A stretch of 64,000 bases of DNA from the IMG/VR virus record IMGVR_UViG_3300050014_000916, positions 5,028-69,027 of that record, one strand, 5' to 3'. Shown here piece by piece: positions 332 to 32,900 of the stretch (positions within the stretch are counted from its first letter, which is position 1; every line of letters begins with the position of its first letter). Position numbers and translations under genes: made by a program. The notes under the pieces were generated by a model, which was not told the origin of the DNA, did not search any database, and worked only from the letters and a program-made list of their open reading frames with translations. This DNA comes from a virus.

Positions 332-363
332 AAAAAGGACTGTAATTATTTTTACAGTCCCTT
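332..363 (-). terminator. Intrinsic terminator closing the Lys/Tyr tRNA operon
   Basis: Minus strand GGACTGTAA-AAATAA-TTACAGTCC followed by TTTTT. Confidence 0.75.
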
Positions 364-364
364 G

Positions 365-436
365 TGCATCCGACAGGATTTGAACCTGTGTAAGTCCGCT
401 TAAGAGGCGGGAACATAACCACTTTGTTACGGATGC
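365..436 (-). tRNA. tRNA-Lys(CUU)
   Basis: GCATCCG/CGGATGC acceptor, anticodon loop CTCTTAA, T-loop TTCAAAT. Confidence 0.9.
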
Positions 437-442
437 ATGTTG

Positions 443-511
443 TGGGGGTAGTAGGCATCGAACCTACTATGTGGGCTTTTACAGAGCTGGTGTCTCCAAA
501 GACTTACCCCC
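443..511 (-). tRNA. Atypical short tRNA-Tyr(GUA)-like RNA
   Basis: GGGGGTA/TACCCCC acceptor, 1-nt linker, D-arm GTCT-TTGG-AGAC, loop CTGTAAA, T-arm GTAGG-TTCGATG-CCTAC; no long variable arm. Confidence 0.7.
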
Positions 512-518
512 AAATTTG

Positions 519-611
519 ACAGAAGGAAAGGATTCGAACCTTTCAAACCCAACACATACCGTTATTAACTGTAATTTATGCGTGGTAACGTTCCATTTTG
601 TTTACTTCTGT
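519..611 (-). ncRNA. tRNA-like RNA with enlarged anticodon arm and no readable anticodon
   Basis: CAGAAG/CTTCTG acceptor-like stem, T-arm AAAGG-TTCGAAT-CCTTT, ACGCATA/TATGTGT stem around an 18-nt loop. Confidence 0.5.
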
Positions 612-614
612 TTG

Positions 615-700
615 TGATCGCAGTGGGACTCGAACCCACAACGGCATAAAGCACCCTTCTCATTAAAAGTGAGAAGCTCCACCAATTGAGCTATACGATC
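615..700 (-). tRNA. tRNA-Lys(UUU) with long variable arm
   Basis: Anticodon arm TCTCA-CTTTTAA-TGAGA, ~18-nt variable region, T-loop TTCGAGT; 86 nt. Confidence 0.85.
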
Positions 701-864
701 AACAATAATATTAGTTTCAAAGAACTTGTACTCATTTTTTATAGAACATCGTTTTTTAAACGTTTTTCACGGGTAATAAACGTTTTTCATAAAATATGTC
801 TTTTTATACCTATTTTTCATAATCTAAGCGTTTTTATGCAACAATATGCGTTTTTATGCATAAC

Positions 865-893
865 AAAAAACCCGACTCTCAGGGAATCGGGTT
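865..893 (-). terminator. Attenuator terminator 1
   Basis: AACCCGATTC-CCTGA-GAGTCGGGTT then TTTT; lies between leader ORF and tRNAs. Confidence 0.85.
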
Positions 894-920
894 ACTAATA
901 TTTGTATTAAAAGGCAATCA

Positions 921-1013
921 TTAATTTTTACCTTTGGACACAGTATTCCCGATTCCTATAAACTGTTTTTTATAAGATTTTTTTCCGTAATAATATGTTC
1001 CAAAAGTTCTCAT
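921..1013 (-). CDS. Tyr/Lys-rich leader peptide MRTFGTYYYGKKSYKKQFIGIGNTVSKGKN
   Basis: Manual translation; contains GGAATCGGG (948-956), complementary to terminator 5' arm. Confidence 0.8.
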   Translation of the reverse strand: MRTFGTYYYGKKSYKKQFIGIGNTVSKGKN

Positions 1014-1052
1014 TGTTTTATTCTTTAACTATTTCATTAATATTTCAGATCA

Positions 1053-1084
1053 CAAATGTATAGTATAAATACGACATATGCAAA
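1053..1084 (-). promoter_or_regulatory. Bacteroidota sigma70-type promoter for leader 1
   Basis: TACATTTG (-7 box, 1053-1060) and TTTG (-33 box) 20 nt upstream. Confidence 0.65.
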
Positions 1085-3617: not shown

Positions 3618-4328
3618 TTATTTTTTAAATTTACAATTTTCAAAATGCCATCTATTCATTAATCCTTCGCCTCCTATCTTGCCACAATGTGGACAAGTAA
3701 TTTTTTTTCTTGGTATTCCCTTAGTTTTACTTGGTATTCCAGATTTTGCTTCACTTATGTTTTTTTTTGTTGCTTCTGTTTTATTTTTACCCGGATTGTT
3801 TTTCAGAAAATAATCTCGTCTTGCTTCTTTAAAATTATCGGTATGTGATTTACCAAACATTGGATTATTTTCACCTAACACCTTTAATCTTTGGGATTCC
3901 TTAAATTCATTAGTTCTTTTTTTACCAGTATTTTTTGATATTATTTTATCTGTTATTTGCTTTGCTTTTTCCGCACCATATATTTCAATTCTCGTTTTTC
4001 CAAAAAAATGACTTCTTATTTTGTCTCTCACATCAATAGATGGGTTGTTTAATCCATCACCACCATCAGTCAAATTAACCAATAAACCAAGACCTAAATC
4101 ACGTCTGCCAAATTTTTTAATATATTCAATTTCCTTTAAACATGCGTTTTTCCAAGTTAAGTTATCTTCAAGTATTTCAATAGAATAGTTTGTTTTATTT
4201 ACGATGTGTTTCCAAAACAAATTTCTGCTTTTTCTTTGATATGCCCTATTATGATTTTTATCATCACCAATACCAATATAAAAAATTTCATTAGTATCAT
4301 TTCTTCTGTGTTCATATACATATGCCAT
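3618..4328 (-). CDS. Homing endonuclease (GIY-YIG-like N-terminus, NUMOD3 repeats) inserted in RNA ligase gene
   Basis: YVYEH..FYIGIG..RA..E..LVNLTDGGDG; NPMFGKSHT; C-terminal CPHCGK. Confidence 0.8.
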   Translation of the reverse strand: MAYVYEHRRNDTNEIFYIGIGDDKNHNRAYQRKSRNLFWKHIVNKTNYSIEILEDNLTWKNACLKEIEYIKKFGRRDLGLGLLVNLTDGGDGLNNPSIDVRDKIRSHFFGKTRIEIYGAEKAKQITDKIISKNTGKKRTNEFKESQRLKVLGENNPMFGKSHTDNFKEARRDYFLKNNPGKNKTEATKKNISEAKSGIPSKTKGIPRKKITCPHCGKIGGEGLMNRWHFENCKFKK

Positions 4329-4376: not shown

Positions 4377-5852
4377 TCAATAAATTATTTCAAACAGGTA
4401 AGTACATTCTTTGTTCAGTTTTTCATAATCTGTGATATTCAGCATCTTCTGTGCTTCAAGTGCTTGCTCAGATATGAATGAACCTCTTGATGCTACAAGC
4501 CATTTCATTCTTGGTTTGTAGTAGAATAAAATAATAAGTGAACCATCCATTTTTTCAAATACGTCAAATGCTTCTGACCAGTCAATTGTAGCTGGGTCAA
4601 ATTCTTCGTAGTTCTTGAACTTTTCAAATGGACGTGCTATGATGTTACCTTCAGCATCAATTACCAGACCACGACAAGATAAAGTATACTCGTCCCAGAA
4701 CTTCTTTGATTGAACTTTTGGGGAATAGTTAAGTATCCAGAGGTCATATTCTGGGTGCTTGTTTGCAATGATTAGGCTGTTATCAACATACTCTTGCAAT
4801 ATTTTCCAATCGATTTTTTCTAATGCTTTCATTTCATAAATAAATAAATAAATAGGTTCATACTTAAACTTCGTGTTTTTATCTCGTAAATTTACATTTG
4901 AAAGTGCGAGATAAAACTTCTTTGCCAATCTGAAACCTGTTTGTGCTGCAACCTGAATCGTTTTGTCTTCCAAATTAATATTGTGTTTGCCTTTTACATC
5001 GGCAATGTTTATTATCATCAAACCATCTGACTTCAAGCCATAATAACAATTTTCAAATGTCGGTCTCAGGAATCCCTCAACCCATGCTTCCTTTGTATTG
5101 AACTTCACATAACTCTGCGAAGGTTCATCTGCATATTTTTCCAAATCAAAGTATGGCGGTGAAGTAAAACATAAATCCAGCATTCCTTTTTCTGGCTGAT
5201 AACATTCACTTCCACATTTAAAAATATCATACAACATATCACCAGCAAAATCTTCTGCCATATCATGCAGTCCATTAAATGTTAATTCTGAAGGTTCGGT
5301 TGCAATATATTCTTTTACTCCACCAGCAATTGCACCAAGCAATCTGCCACCCCAACCACCTGACATGTCCCAAACTACGCCATCCTTTGCAAATGTATTA
5401 TAAATGCAAGCTGCTGCTGTTGGTCGGAAATTTGATACGCCTTGAACTCCTGTGTAAATCTTCAACATTTTTCTTATACCAGAGTCACTAATATACGTGC
5501 CCATCTGCAACCTTTTCCTTATGACCTTCATGAAAATTTCATCATTCATAAATGCTTCATATGGTGTCATTTTATCATTCGACTTAACATTGAATGAATG
5601 AGGAAAATATGACCACGCAAGTCCTAATCCATGCATTGATTGTTTTATTACATCGTTTTCAAACATCGTACTACGATCATATTTCATCAACTTCTCAAAA
5701 TCCTTTCTTCTGGTTTCCATATCTGTTGGATAATAAGGAAAACCCGTTTCTCTATAATGAATAAAAATCTTTGTTGCGAAGTTTTCCAATTCCATTGGCA
5801 GCATGTCTCGCCAATAATTTTCATTTATATTTAAACTTTCTTTATTTTTCAT
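4377..5852 (-). CDS. DNA amino-methyltransferase fused in frame to N-terminal half of RNA ligase (ligase ATG at 4832)
   Basis: DMSGGWGGRLLG and TSPPYF motifs, then CRGL..ARPFEKFKN..EKMDGS..SRGSF..FEIIY-stop. Confidence 0.8.
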   Translation of the reverse strand: MKNKESLNINENYWRDMLPMELENFATKIFIHYRETGFPYYPTDMETRRKDFEKLMKYDRSTMFENDVIKQSMHGLGLAWSYFPHSFNVKSNDKMTPYEAFMNDEIFMKVIRKRLQMGTYISDSGIRKMLKIYTGVQGVSNFRPTAAACIYNTFAKDGVVWDMSGGWGGRLLGAIAGGVKEYIATEPSELTFNGLHDMAEDFAGDMLYDIFKCGSECYQPEKGMLDLCFTSPPYFDLEKYADEPSQSYVKFNTKEAWVEGFLRPTFENCYYGLKSDGLMIINIADVKGKHNINLEDKTIQVAAQTGFRLAKKFYLALSNVNLRDKNTKFKYEPIYLFIYEMKALEKIDWKILQEYVDNSLIIANKHPEYDLWILNYSPKVQSKKFWDEYTLSCRGLVIDAEGNIIARPFEKFKNYEEFDPATIDWSEAFDVFEKMDGSLIILFYYKPRMKWLVASRGSFISEQALEAQKMLNITDYEKLNKECTYLFEIIY

Positions 5853-11631: not shown

Positions 11632-11645
11632 AACACATTTATTTG

Positions 11646-12000
11646 TGGAGGTATGGGGAGTCGAACCCCGTCCAAATATGTGAACAATACGTTTTCTACA
11701 AGTTTATTCAGATTTTCAAATCTAACAAAATATTAACATTTGTACGCAACTGTTATCAAACCGACCAATTTTTAACCTTCTTCGGTGGAAAGGTTCTTTG
11801 TTGTATTTGCTATTTCTTAAGCTGCTATTTCGAGTTCAACATTCTCTGAAACGAAGCTACCTCTTGTTAAAGAAGTGGGAAGGGACATAACGTCCTCTGA
11901 ATTAATTGCATTTATATTCTCGAACATGTTTAAAGCGAATATTCAACCGCTACTTGCTTACTATACCATTCGGTCACACTGTCAAAACCAAATTACCCCC
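11646..12000 (-). ncRNA. ssrA: tmRNA
   Basis: 5' GGGGGTAATTTGGTTTTGAC; 3' GGACGGGGTTCGACTCCCCATACCTCCA; G3-U70; tag ORF 11817-11909 ending ELEIAA-stop. Confidence 0.92.
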
Positions 12001-15699: not shown

Positions 15700-15707
15700 A
15701 AAATTCG

Positions 15708-15783
15708 CAGTCCTGACAGGATTTGAACCTGCAACCCCCTCCCGAATCTGAGAGGGATTCACACCCGTATAAACTACAGGACT
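15708..15783 (-). tRNA. tRNA-like RNA with non-canonical anticodon loop
   Basis: AGTCCTG/CAGGACT-G73, normal T-arm, anticodon arm CCCTCTC-AGATTC-GGGAGGG (6-nt loop). Confidence 0.65.
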
Positions 15784-15865: not shown

Positions 15866-15905
15866 AAATTTCCAACATGTCAAAGAACCTCTACAACCAC
15901 AAAAC

Positions 15906-15939
15906 AAAAAACCCGACTGGATTTAGGACAGTCGGGTTT
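15906..15939 (-). terminator. Attenuator terminator 2
   Basis: AAACCCGACTG-TCCTAAATC-CAGTCGGGTTT + T tract. Confidence 0.85.
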
Positions 15940-15976
15940 CTTTTTTATAAGAAAGGAGGTTGTAATATTCGTTGTA

Positions 15977-16069
15977 TTACCCGACTGTATATAGCTTATC
16001 CTCTTCGGCTGCCCATAATAGGACATCCACCATGAGGACTGCTACCAATATGTCGAATAAATTTTTCAT
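15977..16069 (-). CDS. Leader peptide MKNLFDILVAVLMVDVLLWAAEEDKLYTVG
   Basis: Manual translation; ends in ACAGTCGGGT (15979-15988), complementary to terminator 5' arm. Confidence 0.75.
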   Translation of the reverse strand: MKNLFDILVAVLMVDVLLWAAEEDKLYTVG

Positions 16070-16113
16070 CGTTTTTCTTTTAAATTTGTTTGTCTTTCTA
16101 TTTAAATACTTTG

Positions 16114-16143
16114 CAAAGATAATAAAGTTTTCTGATTTCCAAA
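16114..16143 (-). promoter_or_regulatory. Bacteroidota sigma70-type promoter for leader 2
   Basis: TATCTTTG at 16114-16121, TTTG at 16140-16143. Confidence 0.65.
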
Positions 16144-19517: not shown

Positions 19518-19571
19518 TTTGCAAAGATAGTAATAAAAACAATAAGTCAAAGAACTTTTTATTTTTTGTTG

Positions 19572-21019: not shown

Positions 21020-21163
21020 AAATTTATTTTATTATAAATACTAATAAAAAGTCGAAAAACGATGATTTGAATAAATTTCAATACATCGTTACTCGATAAT
21101 TTTACAATATTTCAAAGAACTATATCCCGTAATTACGTGATAAACGCTTTTATCACGCTTTTT

Positions 21164-21421: not shown

Positions 21422-21443
21422 AATACATCAAAGAACTAAAATG

Positions 21444-21472
21444 AAAAAACCCCATTCGATATGAATGGGGTT
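21444..21472 (-). terminator. Attenuator terminator 3
   Basis: AACCCCATTC-ATATC-GAATGGGGTT + TTTT. Confidence 0.85.
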
Positions 21473-21507
21473 CTTCTGTTTAACCTAAAACTTTTTCAAT
21501 GAAAAAA

Positions 21508-21576
21508 TTAAGCATAGAATCCCCATTCCAGTGTTTGTGGATGCTGTTGGGGGTTTATGTTCATTAAATTTTTCAT
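21508..21576 (-). CDS. Pro/Gln/His leader peptide MKNLMNINPQQHPQTLEWGFYA
   Basis: Manual translation; contains GAATGGGG (21521-21528), complementary to terminator 5' arm. Confidence 0.82.
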   Translation of the reverse strand: MKNLMNINPQQHPQTLEWGFYA

Positions 21577-21610
21577 CGTCTTACAAATAACATTTATTAA
21601 AAACTCTTCG

Positions 21611-21641
21611 CAAAGATATACATTAAAATCATAAATACAAA
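21611..21641 (-). promoter_or_regulatory. Bacteroidota sigma70-type promoter for leader 3
   Basis: TATCTTTG at 21611-21618, TTTG 19 nt upstream. Confidence 0.65.
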
Positions 21642-30431: not shown

Positions 30432-32900
30432 ATGAAAAAACATGCATCACAAGAAGCATTTATTCAAAGACTTCAGGAATTGGCACAAACAAAGAAACCT
30501 ATTATAAAGGAAGCAAACGTCCGTAATTTAGGCGACTTGATTGATTATAAGAGGTCAGCCGATGGTATTGCTTATGGTATTGTCAAAGAACAGCACCATT
30601 ATTATATTAAAAAAGCTGGCACTAAAGAAAATCCTAATGTTGCAGATTTTGCATATATTGGTGGATTATCAAATATAACCAATTATCAATACACTAAGTT
30701 ATCTGAAGCTGAGAAGCAAAGGAATATGATATTTCAAACAATCAACGAAAGTATTGCAAATAAACCAAGTTTAACAGGTAGCAAGAAAAAAAGGCTTAAC
30801 GAAGACGTTGCAAAAGACGAACTCGATCAAGCATCGGATAAGGTTGGTGAATTAGATGCTGCAACAAATGCAGAAAATACTCCAGAACCAGCACCAAACC
30901 CAGAGGGTGGTGCACCTACAGATGCAGGAATGCCTTCACCAACTGGTGATAGTAATGCACCTACAGATATGGAAGAACCTGCTCCAGATGCTGGTAATGA
31001 AGAACTTCCACCTGCTGAAGATGCAGAAGCTGGTAGTGAAGAAGAACTTCCACCTACTGATGATACAGAAGAGAATCCTGAAGGCGAAAATCCCGAAGGT
31101 GAAGGAAAAGATGCAATTGCATCTGATATTGGTGAAATTGGCGAAAAAGTACAAAATACAAATCTAAAAGAAGATAAGGTTAAGGAATATGTTGGTACAT
31201 TTCTTGGTTATTTTACAGATTACTTTAAGAAAATGCCACAAGAAGAACTTGATGACTTGGGTGATAAAATTATTAAGGTTAACACCGAAGCAAACATAAA
31301 AGATTTGGAAGCAAATACTCCAAATGAACCAATTGCAGGTGGCGAAGAAGCTGGTATTGAAGAAGAACAAGAACAGTGCGCAGAATGTGGTAAATTCAGT
31401 AAATATGCAGAATCACGTGGTTATGACAGTCCAGAAAAATTCATGGAATGTGATGATGAGGAAAAAACAAATGTTGTTAATGACTATATAACTGCAGGTG
31501 ACGAAGGTATGAATGATGGCGATGAAAAAACTATTAGTTTAATCATCAAATTATCTCCAGATATGCTTGCTAAACTGAAAGACGATTACGGTCAGGAAGA
31601 ATATGCAGAAAAAATTCAACCACAGGTTGATTCAATGAATGAATCCGATGAAGATGCTATGATGCAACTTAAAGAAGCATGGGGTGATGTATGGCAGGGT
31701 ATTAAAGGTGCTGGGCAAGCAATTGCTGGTGCTGCTAAAACTGCTGGTACAGGTATTTCACAGGCTTATCATGGTATTGGTGTTAATCCAGCATGGAATA
31801 AACTTGCAGCTATTGCAACTGATTTGGGAAAACAAATTAATGCAGTAAATGATAAAGCAGTTAAAGCTGGTCAGAGTCCTGTTAAAGTTCAGGATATTCT
31901 TTCAGTAATAAATAAACAATTAACTACTCCAACAGCACCACAGACAAAGACTGGTAAAGACATGAATGCAAGTCAAGCTGCTGCTTGGCAAGCTGGTAAT
32001 AAAGGTCAACAAACTGCTGGAACTAATGTAGATGTTAATGCATTAAAAGGACAACAGGGTATTGCTAAGAAAGCTGCTCAACCACTTTCAAAGGTAGCAG
32101 AAAATCAGATGCCAGTTGATCAAACACAGGTACAACCTAATATATTAAAAGAAGAGGAAGATGAAGAAGAAAAGGATTTTAATATAGATGATCTTGATAC
32201 AGGTGAAGAAAAAGGTGGTGAAGAAGTTACTCCAGAGGAAACTCCTGAAGAAACTCCTGAAATTGAAACTGGTGGTGAAGAAGAGGAAGAAGTTCCTGAA
32301 GAAACTCCAAGTATTTTTGGAAAAGACGCACAAAACTTAGGTGGTGGTGTTGTTAAACCTGAAGGTGCTGGTGTTGAAATTAAAATCGAACCAGATAAAA
32401 GCATCAATATTTCAATGAGTGAATCTGAAAAGAAATTAAGAAAATACATTCGTGAACATCTTGAAGTTAAAGCAGGTTTAAGAAAAGCAAATCTTAATGA
32501 AAGTAAAAAATCACCAACATTAATGAAACTTGACGCTGTAATTGACAGACAATTTAAGCTCTATGAATCAACTATAGTTAAAAAAAAAGTTGAAGAAGGT
32601 GTAGTAACAGATGTAATGGGTAAAATGGGACAAGGACTTGAAGGTAGATTGAAAAAACAAAGAGAATTGAAACGTGCTTTGGAAATTGACCCTGAAAATG
32701 CTGGTTCTGCACTTTATAAGGCATTTGAACAAGATTTTAAATTTCAAGCTGGTGGACTTCAGTATTTAAATAAATTAACACCTGAAGAAAAAATGCAGCT
32801 TGCACAACAAGCAGCAAGCGACCCCAAAGGGTTAGGTCAATTGAAAATTATGAATGATAAACTCACATATATTCCAGTTGATTACTCAGCAAGAGGATAA
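30432..32900 (+). CDS. Large acidic prohead core / internal protein
   Basis: 822 aa, E/P-rich low-complexity blocks, many xxE putative protease sites. Confidence 0.65.
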   Translation: MKKHASQEAFIQRLQELAQTKKPIIKEANVRNLGDLIDYKRSADGIAYGIVKEQHHYYIKKAGTKENPNVADFAYIGGLSNITNYQYTKLSEAEKQRNMIFQTINESIANKPSLTGSKKKRLNEDVAKDELDQASDKVGELDAATNAENTPEPAPNPEGGAPTDAGMPSPTGDSNAPTDMEEPAPDAGNEELPPAEDAEAGSEEELPPTDDTEENPEGENPEGEGKDAIASDIGEIGEKVQNTNLKEDKVKEYVGTFLGYFTDYFKKMPQEELDDLGDKIIKVNTEANIKDLEANTPNEPIAGGEEAGIEEEQEQCAECGKFSKYAESRGYDSPEKFMECDDEEKTNVVNDYITAGDEGMNDGDEKTISLIIKLSPDMLAKLKDDYGQEEYAEKIQPQVDSMNESDEDAMMQLKEAWGDVWQGIKGAGQAIAGAAKTAGTGISQAYHGIGVNPAWNKLAAIATDLGKQINAVNDKAVKAGQSPVKVQDILSVINKQLTTPTAPQTKTGKDMNASQAAAWQAGNKGQQTAGTNVDVNALKGQQGIAKKAAQPLSKVAENQMPVDQTQVQPNILKEEEDEEEKDFNIDDLDTGEEKGGEEVTPEETPEETPEIETGGEEEEEVPEETPSIFGKDAQNLGGGVVKPEGAGVEIKIEPDKSINISMSESEKKLRKYIREHLEVKAGLRKANLNESKKSPTLMKLDAVIDRQFKLYESTIVKKKVEEGVVTDVMGKMGQGLEGRLKKQRELKRALEIDPENAGSALYKAFEQDFKFQAGGLQYLNKLTPEEKMQLAQQAASDPKGLGQLKIMNDKLTYIPVDYSARG

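What the first reader, a model, noticed from the sequence alone, without database searches (positions are those of the whole stretch)
332..1084. YYYGKKSYKK leader heading a self-contained Lys/Tyr tRNA operon
The whole unit is visible: promoter (1053-1084), leader MRTFGTYYYGKKSYKKQFIGIGNTVSKGKN, antiterminator GGAATCGGG-AA-TACT pairing with AGTA-A-CCCGATTCC, terminator (865-893), tRNA-Lys(UUU), a tRNA-like RNA, a Tyr(GUA)-like RNA, tRNA-Lys(CUU) and a final terminator. tRNA-Lys(UUU) is the known target of PrrC. All six leader Lys codons are AAA, read only by that tRNA.
Basis: partly seen in the sequence, partly recalled or inferred. Interest (0 to 1): 0.9.

Follow-up and report, generated by a model that had tools for sequence, protein, structure and literature searches.

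The report
Leader-peptide attenuator gating phage Lys/Tyr tRNAs
A huge phage puts a tiny Tyr- and Lys-rich test gene and a switchable transcription stop in front of its Lys and Tyr tRNA genes, so it probably makes these tRNAs only when ribosomes run short of them, a trp-operon-style control that I could not find described for tRNA genes.

Summary
On the minus strand of 334-1084 lie a promoter, a 30-codon ORF with the core YYYGKKSYKK, a 9-nt ORF segment complementary to the 5' arm of a strong intrinsic terminator, tRNA-Lys(UUU), an aberrant tRNA-Tyr(GUA), tRNA-Lys(CUU) and a final terminator.

Comparative data make chance unlikely.
- The same leader occurs in 39 distinct variants in viral and metagenome contigs.
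- Apart from a few odd or mistaken ARAGORN calls, only Lys and Tyr tRNAs follow it, often 9-19 nt after the terminator T-run.
- Two helices pair the Tyr/Lys codons with the strand that holds the antiterminator segment, and both show compensatory changes.
- The window and two complete relatives (349 and 363 kb) carry paralogous units. Their leaders mirror their own tRNA sets: PQQHPQ with Pro/His/Gln, a D/E/V/L/A/W-rich leader with those tRNAs, and a T/S/N/I/F/C/G/R-rich leader with those tRNAs.
- In the Asp-type unit the leader-to-terminator pairing covaries.

Best reading (0.75): trp-like ribosome-mediated attenuation in which stalling at Tyr/Lys codons lets transcription run into the tRNAs.

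The AAA-only and PrrC point is not conserved or tested. The 512-613 "tRNA-like RNA" is unsupported. A conserved A-tract array is unexplained. Nothing was shown experimentally.

This scan has reported the same principle before on other phage DNA. My searches found no published account.

The parts
1053..1084 (-). Promoter: TTTG (1081-1084), 20 nt, TACATTTG (1053-1060). It fits the two-box Bacteroidota-type pattern, which I recall from memory.
   Evidence: The pattern gives 9 matches in the window against 4.9 expected. Three of the 9 are the promoters of the three leader units. The boxes are kept in most relatives.
921..1013 (-). Leader ORF, 30 codons plus TAA: MRTFGTYYYGKKSYKKQFIGIGNTVSKGKN.
   Evidence: The frame is open in 39 distinct relatives, at 26-32 codons.
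966..995 (-). Regulatory codons 7-16, YYYGKKSYKK: 4 Tyr and 4 Lys.
   Evidence: 8 of 10 residues are in {K,Y} against a background of 0.138. p=4.6e-6, or 1.5e-3 after correction for 325 segments.
933..1004 (-). Leader hairpin (regions 1:2). H1 pairs 996-1004 with 933-942. H2 pairs 969-977 with 954-962. The 5' strand carries the Tyr/Lys codons and the 3' strand carries the antiterminator segment.
   Evidence: -21.5 kcal/mol, z=-3.7 for the whole leader region. RNAalifold predicts H2; pair 13-78 is GC in 24 and AU in 11; pair 45-52 is GC in 28 and AU in 10. There are 28 cells changed on both sides against 10.6 in shuffles (0 of 500 reach it).
948..956 (-). Antiterminator segment (region 2 core), GGAATCGGG, inside codons 20-22.
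   Evidence: GAATCGGG is kept in 36 of 39 relatives, and 3 have a final A. The first base of codon 20 varies (G, A or C, giving Gly or Arg).
865..893 (-). Intrinsic terminator: stem 869-893 and T-run to 865. The 5' arm at 883-891 is complementary to 948-956.
   Evidence: (-13.7 kcal/mol).
726..864 (-). Array of A-tracts and small palindromes, with repeats spaced 20, 30 and 50 nt. Its function is unexplained.
   Evidence: 93-94% identical over 118-126 nt in the best-matching of 23 held loci with a hit. It is absent from the relatives where the tRNA starts 9-19 nt after the T-run.
717..725 (-). GTTCTTTGA motif, 16 nt before the first tRNA.
   Evidence: 6 copies against 1.04 expected (0 of 100 shuffles reach 6). 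One copy lies between the terminator and the first tRNA in each of the three units.
614..700 (-). tRNA-Lys(UUU), 87 nt, with an extra variable-arm hairpin.
512..613 (-). Spacer with acceptor-like and T-arm-like pairings. It is not confirmed as a tRNA.
   Evidence: Seen by eye. No call by ARAGORN or Rfam. No homologue in the held loci.
442..511 (-). Aberrant 70-nt tRNA-Tyr(GUA).
   Evidence: ARAGORN. No match to the Rfam tRNA model at E<=10. Counterparts in 6 held loci.
364..436 (-). tRNA-Lys(CUU).
334..363 (-). Terminator closing the operon.
   Evidence: my own scan. It has no upstream complement longer than 5 nt.

Best explanation
This is a ribosome-mediated (leader-peptide) transcription attenuator that gates a phage tRNA operon.

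Proposed mechanism:
1. Host RNA polymerase starts at the promoter (1053-1084) and a ribosome translates the 30-codon leader.
2. Left alone, or after a ribosome has run through and left, the leader RNA folds into a long hairpin. The hairpin pairs the stretch holding the Tyr/Lys codons with the stretch holding GGAATCGGG. The terminator at 865-893 then forms and transcription stops before the tRNAs.
3. If the ribosome stalls at the Tyr or Lys codons because charged tRNA-Tyr or tRNA-Lys is scarce, it covers the 5' strand of that hairpin.
4. GGAATCGGG is then free and pairs with the terminator's 5' arm as soon as that arm is made. The terminator cannot form, and polymerase runs on into tRNA-Lys(UUU), tRNA-Tyr and tRNA-Lys(CUU).
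5. The operon's own products relieve the stall, which makes this a negative feedback on decoding capacity for Lys and Tyr codons.

Shown: the sequence elements, their conservation, covariation in the leader hairpin, and the link between leader composition and tRNA identity. Inferred: translation of the leader, the direction of the switch, and any response to tRNA supply.
For: (1) Anatomy. All elements stand in the right order. With leader nt 1-58 blocked, as under a ribosome stalled at Lys16, the antiterminator is the minimum-energy fold (-26.8 kcal/mol) and the terminator is gone. The free RNA folds as leader hairpin plus terminator (-38.2).

(2) Conservation of the unit. The degenerate pattern for YYYGKK(S/T)YKK hit 20 viral and 46 metagenome stretches. 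That makes 69 matches counting the window and L002/L003. Of 58 with at least 300 nt downstream, 49 have only Lys/Tyr tRNAs within 2.5 kb. The other 9 are listed in the Against line.

(3) No room for a second promoter. In L004, L007, L010, L011, L018 and L023 (and duplicates of them) the first tRNA starts 9-19 nt after the T-run. Those tRNAs can only be reached by reading through the terminator.

(4) Leader hairpin. On 39 distinct leaders, H2 is 96.3% paired and H1 78.6%. Compensatory changes occur at 45-52 (GC 28, AU 10) and 13-78 (GC 24, AU 11). There are 28 cells changed on both sides against 10.6+-2.3 in shuffles (0 of 500). Slid controls pair 38-56% of cells.

(5) The antiterminator segment is constrained as RNA. 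GAATCGGG pairs with CCCGATTC 8 of 8 in 14 of 14 full units, while the spacer between them cannot be aligned and the terminator's 3' arm varies. The first base of codon 20, just outside the conserved 8-nt GAATCGGG core, changes the amino acid freely (Gly 18, Arg 21), and the peptide flanks show no third-position bias.

(6) Specificity. Of 18 terminator-like hairpins in the window, only the three in front of tRNA clusters have a G+C-rich upstream complement of 8-10 nt. That length was reached by 0, 0 and 2 of 300 shuffles.

(7) Independent paralogues. The window has 3 such units, and the complete relatives G001 and G002 have 4 each. tRNA tallies behind distinct units:
- P, 20 units: Pro 40, His 24, Gln 40, plus 6 that leak in from the next operon.
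- D, 16 units: Asp 30, Glu 23, Val 14, Leu 32, Ala 13, Trp 10.
- K, 16 units: Lys 35, Tyr 22, and 1 miscall.
- T, 4 units: Thr, Cys, Ile, Ser, Phe, Gly, Met, Asn, Arg.
Share of leader residues drawn from the unit's own set, against background: 0.37 vs 0.089, 0.66 vs 0.32, 0.35 vs 0.138, 0.82 vs 0.45.

(8) The leader-to-terminator pairing covaries where it varies. In 16 D-type units, 5 of 10 pairs change on both sides (11 cells, 0 of 500 shuffles reach it). In the T-type units, G001 and G002 have different but matching segments.
Against: No experiment and no RNA data exist: no RNA run holds the stretch.

Within the Lys/Tyr family the antiterminator pairing never varies on both sides, so it has no covariation of its own. 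Three relatives lose its last pair.

The leader's stop codon lies 27 nt past the antiterminator segment. A terminating ribosome therefore does not mask that segment, as it would in trp or in the P and D units, where the stop lies 13 and 2 nt past it. Termination has to rely on refolding of the leader hairpin, which is an assumption.

In L002, L011 and L016 the terminator fold is 0.7-2.8 kcal/mol more stable than the antiterminator even with the leader blocked, so kinetic control is needed.

RNAalifold on its own predicted only H2, not H1. The sequences are related, so covariation cells are not independent events.

Whole-leader enrichment in the window is modest: 10 of 29 residues, p=0.004. The core was fixed by my search pattern.

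The 9 of 58 loci that were not 'only Lys/Tyr':
- 4 carry a 'Leu(taa)' call. For L002 and L009 I read it as a Lys(CUU) homologue with C33, by eye. I did not check L280 and L282.
- L256 has a 'Cys(gca)' call and L281 a 'Val(aac)' call among Lys/Tyr tRNAs. Neither was examined.
- L274 has no tRNA in its 388 nt.
- L242 and L276 are unrelated chance matches.

A conserved 140-nt array between the terminator and the tRNAs is unexplained. It could hold a second control element or a start site that I cannot recognise.
Confidence: 0.75

Rival explanations
1. The ORF is an ordinary small-protein gene with its own terminator. The tRNAs are made constitutively, either by leaky readthrough or from an unrecognised start in the A-tract array. 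The match of the ORF to the terminator arm has no switching role.
For: The window has 140 nt of conserved sequence between the terminator and the first tRNA. The antiterminator pairing shows no covariation within this family. There is no expression data.
Against: Many relatives leave 9-19 nt between the T-run and the first tRNA. The peptide flanks are not conserved as protein. Four leader classes mirror four tRNA sets. The complement is specific to the tRNA-preceding terminators and covaries in the D class. The two-box promoter pattern has no match in 726-864.
Confidence: 0.08
2. The switch is real but senses translation in general rather than the supply of tRNA-Lys and tRNA-Tyr. Examples are ribosome availability, host shut-off or ribosome-targeting stress. 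Any slowing of the leader ribosome would open the operon.
For: Any ribosome paused on nt 7-58 would free the antiterminator. An inducible tRNA operon that answers to general translational stress is known in Anabaena (PMC8421152 abstract and word search; PMC10272220 search listing and word search).
Against: General sensing would not need leaders written in the operon's own amino acids, yet each of the four classes is. The Tyr and Lys codons are exactly the invariant part of the 5' strand, although my search pattern partly enforces that.
Confidence: 0.08
3. The control does not depend on translation. The conserved leader hairpin and the alternative pairing are set by a protein or by a tRNA binding the RNA directly (T-box-like or protein-mediated antitermination), and the ORF is incidental.
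For: RNA-level conservation is strong: Tyr codons TAT TAT TAC in 39 of 39, and compensatory pairs. The conserved array could bind a factor.
Against: No Rfam family other than tRNA reaches its threshold in 300-1100, and no T-box in the window. The frame stays open with ATG and a stop in all 39 variants despite indels. In the P and D classes the stop codon sits at a fixed 13 or 2 nt from the antiterminator segment, which only makes sense for a ribosome. A direct tRNA sensor for 2 to 9 different amino acids has no precedent that I know of.
Confidence: 0.06

Closest known systems
Leader-peptide attenuators of enterobacterial amino-acid operons: trpL, hisL, pheL, leuL, and the multivalent thrL and ilvL (textbook knowledge, recalled; pheL paper PMC3082878 seen as abstract)
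   Same: A promoter-proximal mini-ORF rich in the sensed amino acids. A 1:2 hairpin that includes the regulatory codons. A 2:3 antiterminator that overlaps the 5' arm of a 3:4 intrinsic terminator. More than one amino acid sensed, as in thr and ilv.
   Different: The genes behind the terminator are tRNAs, not biosynthetic enzymes, so the product that relieves the stall is the tRNA itself. The element is phage-borne, sits behind a Bacteroidota-type promoter and comes as a set of 3-4 paralogues that divide the amino acids among them. In this unit the stop codon lies well past region 2.
pheST attenuator of E. coli, with leader pheM controlling Phe-tRNA synthetase
   Same: Leader-peptide attenuation applied to a part of the translation apparatus and read out through tRNA charging.
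   Different: It controls a synthetase, not tRNA genes. It senses a single amino acid and is cellular.
T-box riboswitches
   Same: A terminator-or-antiterminator choice that reports on a specific tRNA and controls translation-related genes.
   Different: A T-box binds uncharged tRNA directly through a specifier codon and the T-box loop, without a ribosome. No T-box model matched here.
Inducible tRNA array (trn operon) of Anabaena PCC 7120 (PMC8421152; PMC10272220)
   Same: A supernumerary tRNA operon that is silent by default and switched on when translation is impaired.
   Different: It is reported as controlled by the repressor TrcR. The words 'attenuat' and 'leader peptide' do not occur in either main text. 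It is cellular and plasmid-borne.
Phage tRNAs as counter-defence against tRNA-cleaving systems (PMC11555353 abstract; PMC10264068 search listing)
   Same: tRNA-Tyr (retron-Eco7 PtuAB) and tRNA-Lys (PrrC170) are the reported targets that phages replace with their own copies. This operon carries the same two identities.
   Different: PMC11555353's section headings describe strong constitutive expression ('strong promoter'), not a sensing switch; PMC10264068 I saw only as a search listing. No nuclease or host is known for this phage.

Membership tests
Leader-peptide (ribosome-mediated) transcription attenuator | A short ORF with a start codon directly behind a promoter and ahead of the regulated genes. 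| tested here: met
   ORF at 921-1013, 40 nt behind the promoter boxes. The frame is kept in 39 distinct relatives.
Leader-peptide (ribosome-mediated) transcription attenuator | Regulatory codons for the sensed amino acid(s) are clustered in the leader. | tested here: met
   YYYGKKSYKK has 8 of 10 residues in {K,Y}, p=4.6e-6 (1.5e-3 corrected). The paralogous leaders are likewise enriched for their own sets.
Leader-peptide (ribosome-mediated) transcription attenuator | An intrinsic terminator lies between the leader and the regulated genes. | tested here: met
   It is present in 14 of 14 distinct units that have sequence there.
Leader-peptide (ribosome-mediated) transcription attenuator | An antiterminator pairing excludes the terminator (2:3 against 3:4). 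| tested here: met
   9 nt here, and 8 of 8 pairs in 14 of 14 units. 0 of 300 shuffles reach it. It covaries in the paralogous D class. It has no covariation inside the Lys/Tyr family.
Leader-peptide (ribosome-mediated) transcription attenuator | A 1:2 hairpin ties the regulatory codons to region 2, so that only a ribosome stalled there frees region 2. | tested here: met
   Compensatory pairs at 13-78 and 45-52. H1 was not predicted by RNAalifold alone.
Leader-peptide (ribosome-mediated) transcription attenuator | Readthrough rises when the cognate charged tRNA is limiting, and this depends on translation of the leader. | not testable with these tools
   No RNA run holds the stretch. Reporter assays or in vitro assays are needed.
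Leader-peptide (ribosome-mediated) transcription attenuator | The regulated genes make or charge the sensed amino acid (the classical scope of the family). | tested here: not met
   Only tRNA genes follow. This is the point of novelty, not an argument against the mechanism.
T-box riboswitch | Match to the T-box leader model (specifier loop and T-box sequence). | tested here: not met
   No Rfam hit other than tRNA and tmRNA at gathering score in the window. Nothing T-box-like at E<=10 in 300-1100.

The most novel reading that the evidence does not exclude
The phage carries a set of codon-matched leader-peptide gauges that read, in real time, whether ribosomes can still decode each group of codons. 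The Lys/Tyr gauge is an inducible counter-defence. When a host anticodon nuclease or other tRNA-degrading immune system (PrrC-like for Lys, retron PtuAB-like for Tyr) empties those pools, ribosomes stall in the leader and the phage switches on replacement tRNAs. Some of those tRNAs have unusual bodies: a long-arm tRNA-Lys(UUU) and a miniature tRNA-Tyr.
Probability: 0.3. Interest if true: 0.9.

Novelty: new variant of a known kind. Interest (0 to 1): 0.8.

Why it matters
Phage tRNA genes are usually treated as constitutive add-ons, either for codon compensation or, more recently, as replacements for tRNAs destroyed by host immunity. A leader-peptide attenuator in front of them would mean several things.

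- The phage measures decoding capacity codon group by codon group and makes tRNAs on demand.
- The classic trp/his mechanism would extend to RNA genes.
- tRNA supply would have a direct feedback loop.
- The link to tRNA-targeting defences would become testable, because Lys and Tyr are the two identities with published nuclease targets (PMC11555353 abstract).

The unit is small (about 220 nt) and modular, and it exists in four natural specificities. It could therefore serve as a reporter of the availability of a specific tRNA.

The signature is a mini-ORF whose composition mirrors the tRNAs behind a terminator. It can be searched for. This scan has now met it in several unrelated phage groups, which suggests a general principle rather than a curiosity.

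Tried and rejected
Expression evidence. The look-up of sequencing runs listed 20 holders, all DNA contigs apart from one guessed 'RNA?' row with a 0.05 share. No RNA holder was listed. I did not lay reads, because contigs cannot show 3' ends.

Second promoter in the A-tract array. The two-box pattern has no match in 726-864. The array's TGAAAAACR repeat is not enriched in the window: 6 found against 4.15 expected. I could assign no function. I considered phased A-tract curvature and small palindromes acting as operators, but tested neither.

Second leader inside the array. I looked at an ATG-started 17-codon frame rich in Lys and Tyr. I dropped it because L002 has an in-frame stop after 4 codons (by eye).

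T-type leader scan. The 14-mer used was too unspecific, with 117 or more mostly unrelated hits. Only the loci that passed my pipeline were used, so the T class rests on 4 units.

The 'tRNA-like RNA' at 512-613. No call by ARAGORN or Rfam and no homologue. I do not count it as a gene.

Genome collection scan. It gave 2 hits. One is the same 362,763-base contig as G002, filed as a MAG. The other, L287, is a chance match inside a long coding region in another frame. Neither gives host information.

Host assignment. It rests only on the recalled Bacteroidota promoter pattern and is not established.

Literature. Four searches found no paper describing leader-peptide attenuation of tRNA genes. Subscription-only papers are not covered by the library.

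Rows dropped. In one search two units were left unclassified (L040, L232), because my script had picked a wrong-frame ORF. In alignment A2, rows L182 and L220 are out of register and count as unpaired.
Full report
WHAT THE WINDOW IS. The window is bases 5028-69027 of a 69-kb IMG/VR virus record that CheckV rates 21% complete. It has 32% G+C. It carries 18 tRNA genes and a tmRNA, all on the minus strand. The nearest named phage record is an uncultured 595-kb phage, matching over 5% of a 6-kb query. Two complete relatives found later have 349 and 363 kb and 36 and 55 tRNA matches. This is therefore a piece of a huge phage. The promoters discussed below fit the two-box pattern TTTG, about 20 nt, TAnnTTTG. 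I recall that pattern as typical of Bacteroidota. The host is otherwise unknown.

THE OBSERVATION.
- Promoter boxes at 1081-1084 and 1053-1060.
- A 30-codon ORF at 921-1013 reading MRTFGTYYYGKKSYKKQFIGIGNTVSKGKN, with all six Lys codons AAA.
- GGAATCGGG at 948-956 inside the ORF, the exact complement of CCCGATTCC at 883-891.
- That complement is the 5' arm of a 10-bp terminator stem (869-893), which is followed by a T-run to 865.
- tRNA-Lys(UUU) at 614-700 and tRNA-Lys(CUU) at 364-436, both confirmed by ARAGORN and by the Rfam tRNA model.
- A 70-nt tRNA-Tyr(GUA) at 442-511, which only ARAGORN accepts. It has counterparts in six held loci.
- A closing terminator at 334-363.

The 'tRNA-like RNA' at 512-613 is not supported by ARAGORN, by Rfam or by homology.

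One is a 140-nt array of A-tracts and small palindromes at 726-864. The other is a GTTCTTTGA motif at 717-725.

THE LYS/TYR UNIT IN OTHER PHAGES. The protein gene upstream has two relatives at 74-77% identity, and both are followed by the same unit. A degenerate pattern for YYYGKK(S/T)YKK then found 20 viral and 46 metagenome stretches.

Of the 69 matches in all, two (L242, L276) are chance hits with no such ORF. The others lie in an ATG-started frame of 26-32 codons.

Among the 58 matches with at least 300 nt downstream, 49 have only Lys and Tyr tRNAs within 2.5 kb. The nine exceptions are these.
- Four carry 'Leu(taa)' calls. Two of them I read by eye as Lys(CUU) homologues with C33. The other two I did not check.
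- One has a 'Cys' call and one a 'Val(aac)' call among Lys/Tyr tRNAs. I did not examine them.
- One locus has only 388 nt and no tRNA.
- Two are the chance hits named above.

The number and order of the tRNAs differ from contig to contig. What is conserved is therefore the pairing of this leader with these two identities, not one frozen block. In six distinct arrangements the first tRNA begins 9-19 nt after the T-run. That leaves no room for a promoter of its own, so those tRNAs can be transcribed only by reading through the terminator.

RNA STRUCTURE. The free leader folds as a long hairpin (-21.5 kcal/mol) followed by the terminator (-13.7). The whole region scores z=-3.7 against shuffles.

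On 39 distinct leaders, RNAalifold predicts the inner helix H2 without guidance. In it, the third base of Lys15 pairs with the first base of codon 18, as G-C in 28 and A-U in 10.

Counting my two-helix model on the same alignment gives these figures.
- H2 is 96.3% paired and H1 78.6%.
- A second compensatory pair lies at 13-78 (G-C 24, A-U 11).
- 28 cells changed on both sides against 10.6+-2.3 in shuffles (0 of 500).
- Slid controls pair 38-56% of cells.

The 5' strand of this hairpin is the stretch with the Tyr and Lys codons. The 3' strand holds the antiterminator segment.

The antiterminator pairing itself is 8 of 8 in all 14 complete distinct units, so it shows no covariation in this family. 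Its context still argues for an RNA constraint.
- The spacer between stop codon and terminator cannot be aligned, and the spacer from ORF end to terminator stem is 20-52 nt.
- The terminator's 3' arm varies and often pairs imperfectly with the ATTC part of the 5' arm.
- The base just 5' of GAATCGGG changes freely and switches the residue between Gly and Arg.

The peptide outside the core shows no third-position bias. For codons 23-28 the entropy by codon position is 4.5, 5.6 and 4.0. This speaks against a functional small protein.

PARALOGOUS UNITS. The same layout stands in front of the window's Asp cluster and in front of its Pro/His/Gln cluster. The Asp leader ends in a 10-nt complement of its terminator arm that overlaps the stop codon. 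The Pro/His/Gln leader has the core PQQHPQ, with the complement ending 13 nt before the end of the stop codon. The Met, Leu and tmRNA genes have no such unit.

The complete relatives G001 and G002 have four units each. The fourth has a leader rich in Thr, Ser, Asn, Ile, Phe, Cys, Gly and Arg, and it stands in front of exactly those tRNAs.

A script run over all held loci found 126 terminators followed by a tRNA within 400 nt. Of these, 102 had a leader complement of at least 7 nt and a short ORF, giving 58 distinct units. The tRNAs behind them sort cleanly by leader class. Each leader class draws 1.8 to 4 times more of its residues from its own operon's amino acids than long ORFs of the window do.

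In 16 Asp-type units the leader-to-terminator pairing changes on both sides at 5 of 10 pairs (11 cells; 0 of 500 shuffles reach it). The two Thr-type units of G001 and G002 carry different but matching segments.

In the window, only the three tRNA-preceding terminators among 18 terminator-like hairpins have such a complement.

MECHANISM. I read the unit as a trp-like attenuator.
- Region 1 is leader nt 10-45, with the Tyr and Lys codons.
- Region 2 is nt 52-81, with GGAATCGGG.
- Region 3 is the terminator's 5' arm and region 4 its 3' arm.

A ribosome stalled with any codon from Tyr7 to Lys16 in its A site should cover part of region 1 but end before nt 59. I take the downstream edge as about 12 nt past the A-site codon, which is recalled from ribosome-profiling practice. 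Region 2 is then free and pairs with region 3 as that arm emerges.

With nt 1-58 blocked, this antiterminator is the minimum-energy fold of the window's transcript (-26.8 kcal/mol, no terminator). In three relatives it lies 0.7-2.8 kcal/mol above the terminator fold, so the order of synthesis has to decide.

Without a stall, the ribosome runs to the stop codon 27 nt beyond region 2 and leaves. The 1:2 hairpin re-forms while polymerase crosses the spacer, and the terminator forms. This last step is inference. Here the terminating ribosome does not itself mask region 2, as it would in the Pro and Asp units.

The products of the operon relieve the stall, so the loop is homeostatic.

Most relatives carry both AAA and AAG, and both TAT and TAC, in the core. 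The operons carry both Lys isoacceptors. The conserved property is therefore sensing of Lys and Tyr decoding in general, not of tRNA-Lys(UUU) alone. The window's all-AAA leader is the exception: 1 of the 39 distinct leaders, the window's own.

WHAT DOES NOT FIT OR IS OPEN.
- The A-tract array (726-864) is 93-94% identical in the best-matching of 23 held loci with a hit. It is absent from other relatives, has no recognisable promoter and remains unexplained.
- GTTCTTTGA occurs 6 times against 1 expected. It sits between terminator and first tRNA in all three units. It may be a processing or antitermination signal, which I did not test.
- The Tyr gene of this window is aberrant and may or may not be functional.
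- No RNA data exist.

COMPARISON WITH WHAT IS KNOWN. The unit meets every sequence-level criterion of a leader-peptide attenuator, except that the regulated genes are tRNAs. It is not a T-box.

Four full-text searches found no paper on leader-peptide attenuation of tRNA genes. The nearest printed case of an inducible tRNA operon is the Anabaena trn array, reported as under the repressor TrcR. Neither of the two papers contains the words 'attenuat' or 'leader peptide' in its main text.

tRNA-Tyr and tRNA-Lys are the published targets of retron-Eco7 PtuAB and of PrrC170, and phages counter these systems with their own tRNAs (PMC11555353, abstract). That makes a counter-defence role plausible but unproven.

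Earlier agents of this scan reported the same principle in phiCbK-like, crAss-like, lake and other giant phages. Those notes are leads, not evidence.

VERDICT. I put leader-peptide attenuation of a phage Lys/Tyr tRNA operon at about 0.75. It is a new variant of a known kind of control, and of high interest. The decisive evidence is still missing: transcript ends, dependence on leader translation, and response to tRNA supply.

Noticed in passing
window 726-864 (minus strand): An array of A5-6 tracts and small palindromes (AAACGTTT twice, and GCATAAAAACGC-type repeats) with repeat spacings of 20, 30 and 50 nt. It is 93-94% identical in the best-matching relatives that have it and absent from others. 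Curved DNA or an operator array are possible readings.
   Followed up: partly
window 717-725, 15880-15888, 21428-21436, 21112-21120, 19547-19555, 30583-30591: GTTCTTTGA occurs 6 times against 1.04 expected. One copy lies between terminator and first tRNA in each of the three attenuated units.
   Followed up: partly
window 15905-16143 and 21445-21641; L054, L055, L056, L057: Paralogous attenuator units for Asp (with Glu, Val, Leu, Ala, Trp in relatives), for Pro/His/Gln and, in the complete relatives, for Thr/Cys/Asn/Ile/Ser/Phe/Gly/Arg. Together with Lys/Tyr, these four operons cover 19 of the 20 amino acids, or all 20 counting the one Met tRNA in G001's fourth operon.
   Followed up: yes
window 614-700; also L008, L010, L018: tRNA-Lys(UUU) carries an extra variable-arm hairpin (87 nt here). 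Copies of 84-85 nt occur in three relatives, while other relatives have 72-76 nt.
   Followed up: partly
window 512-613: A 102-nt spacer with acceptor-like and T-arm-like pairings and a long stem whose 18-nt loop contains, by eye, a stretch complementary to the Tyr anticodon loop. No tool calls it and no relative has it.
   Followed up: partly
window 11643-12000: A phage-borne tmRNA gene (Rfam 94.4 bits; ARAGORN gives a tag peptide).
   Followed up: no
window 15707-15783: ARAGORN calls a tRNA with a four-base anticodon (gatt) inside the Asp cluster. The Rfam tRNA model scores it 38.6 bits.
   Followed up: no
window 4377-5852, 3618-4328, 2084-2929: Just upstream of the Lys/Tyr unit: an ORF combining a DNA methylase domain with the start of a T4-type RNA ligase domain, a NUMOD3-motif ORF, and a papain-family protease.
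   Followed up: partly
L055 about 15386 and L058 about 12313: Both complete relatives carry a tRNA with anticodon CUA, which ARAGORN labels 'Pyl'. It is a possible amber suppressor.
   Followed up: no
L286: A contig of exactly the length of G002 (362,763 bases) that carries the same leader is filed in the genome collection as part of a Candidatus Paceibacterota MAG. It is probably a phage contig binned with a bacterium.
   Followed up: no
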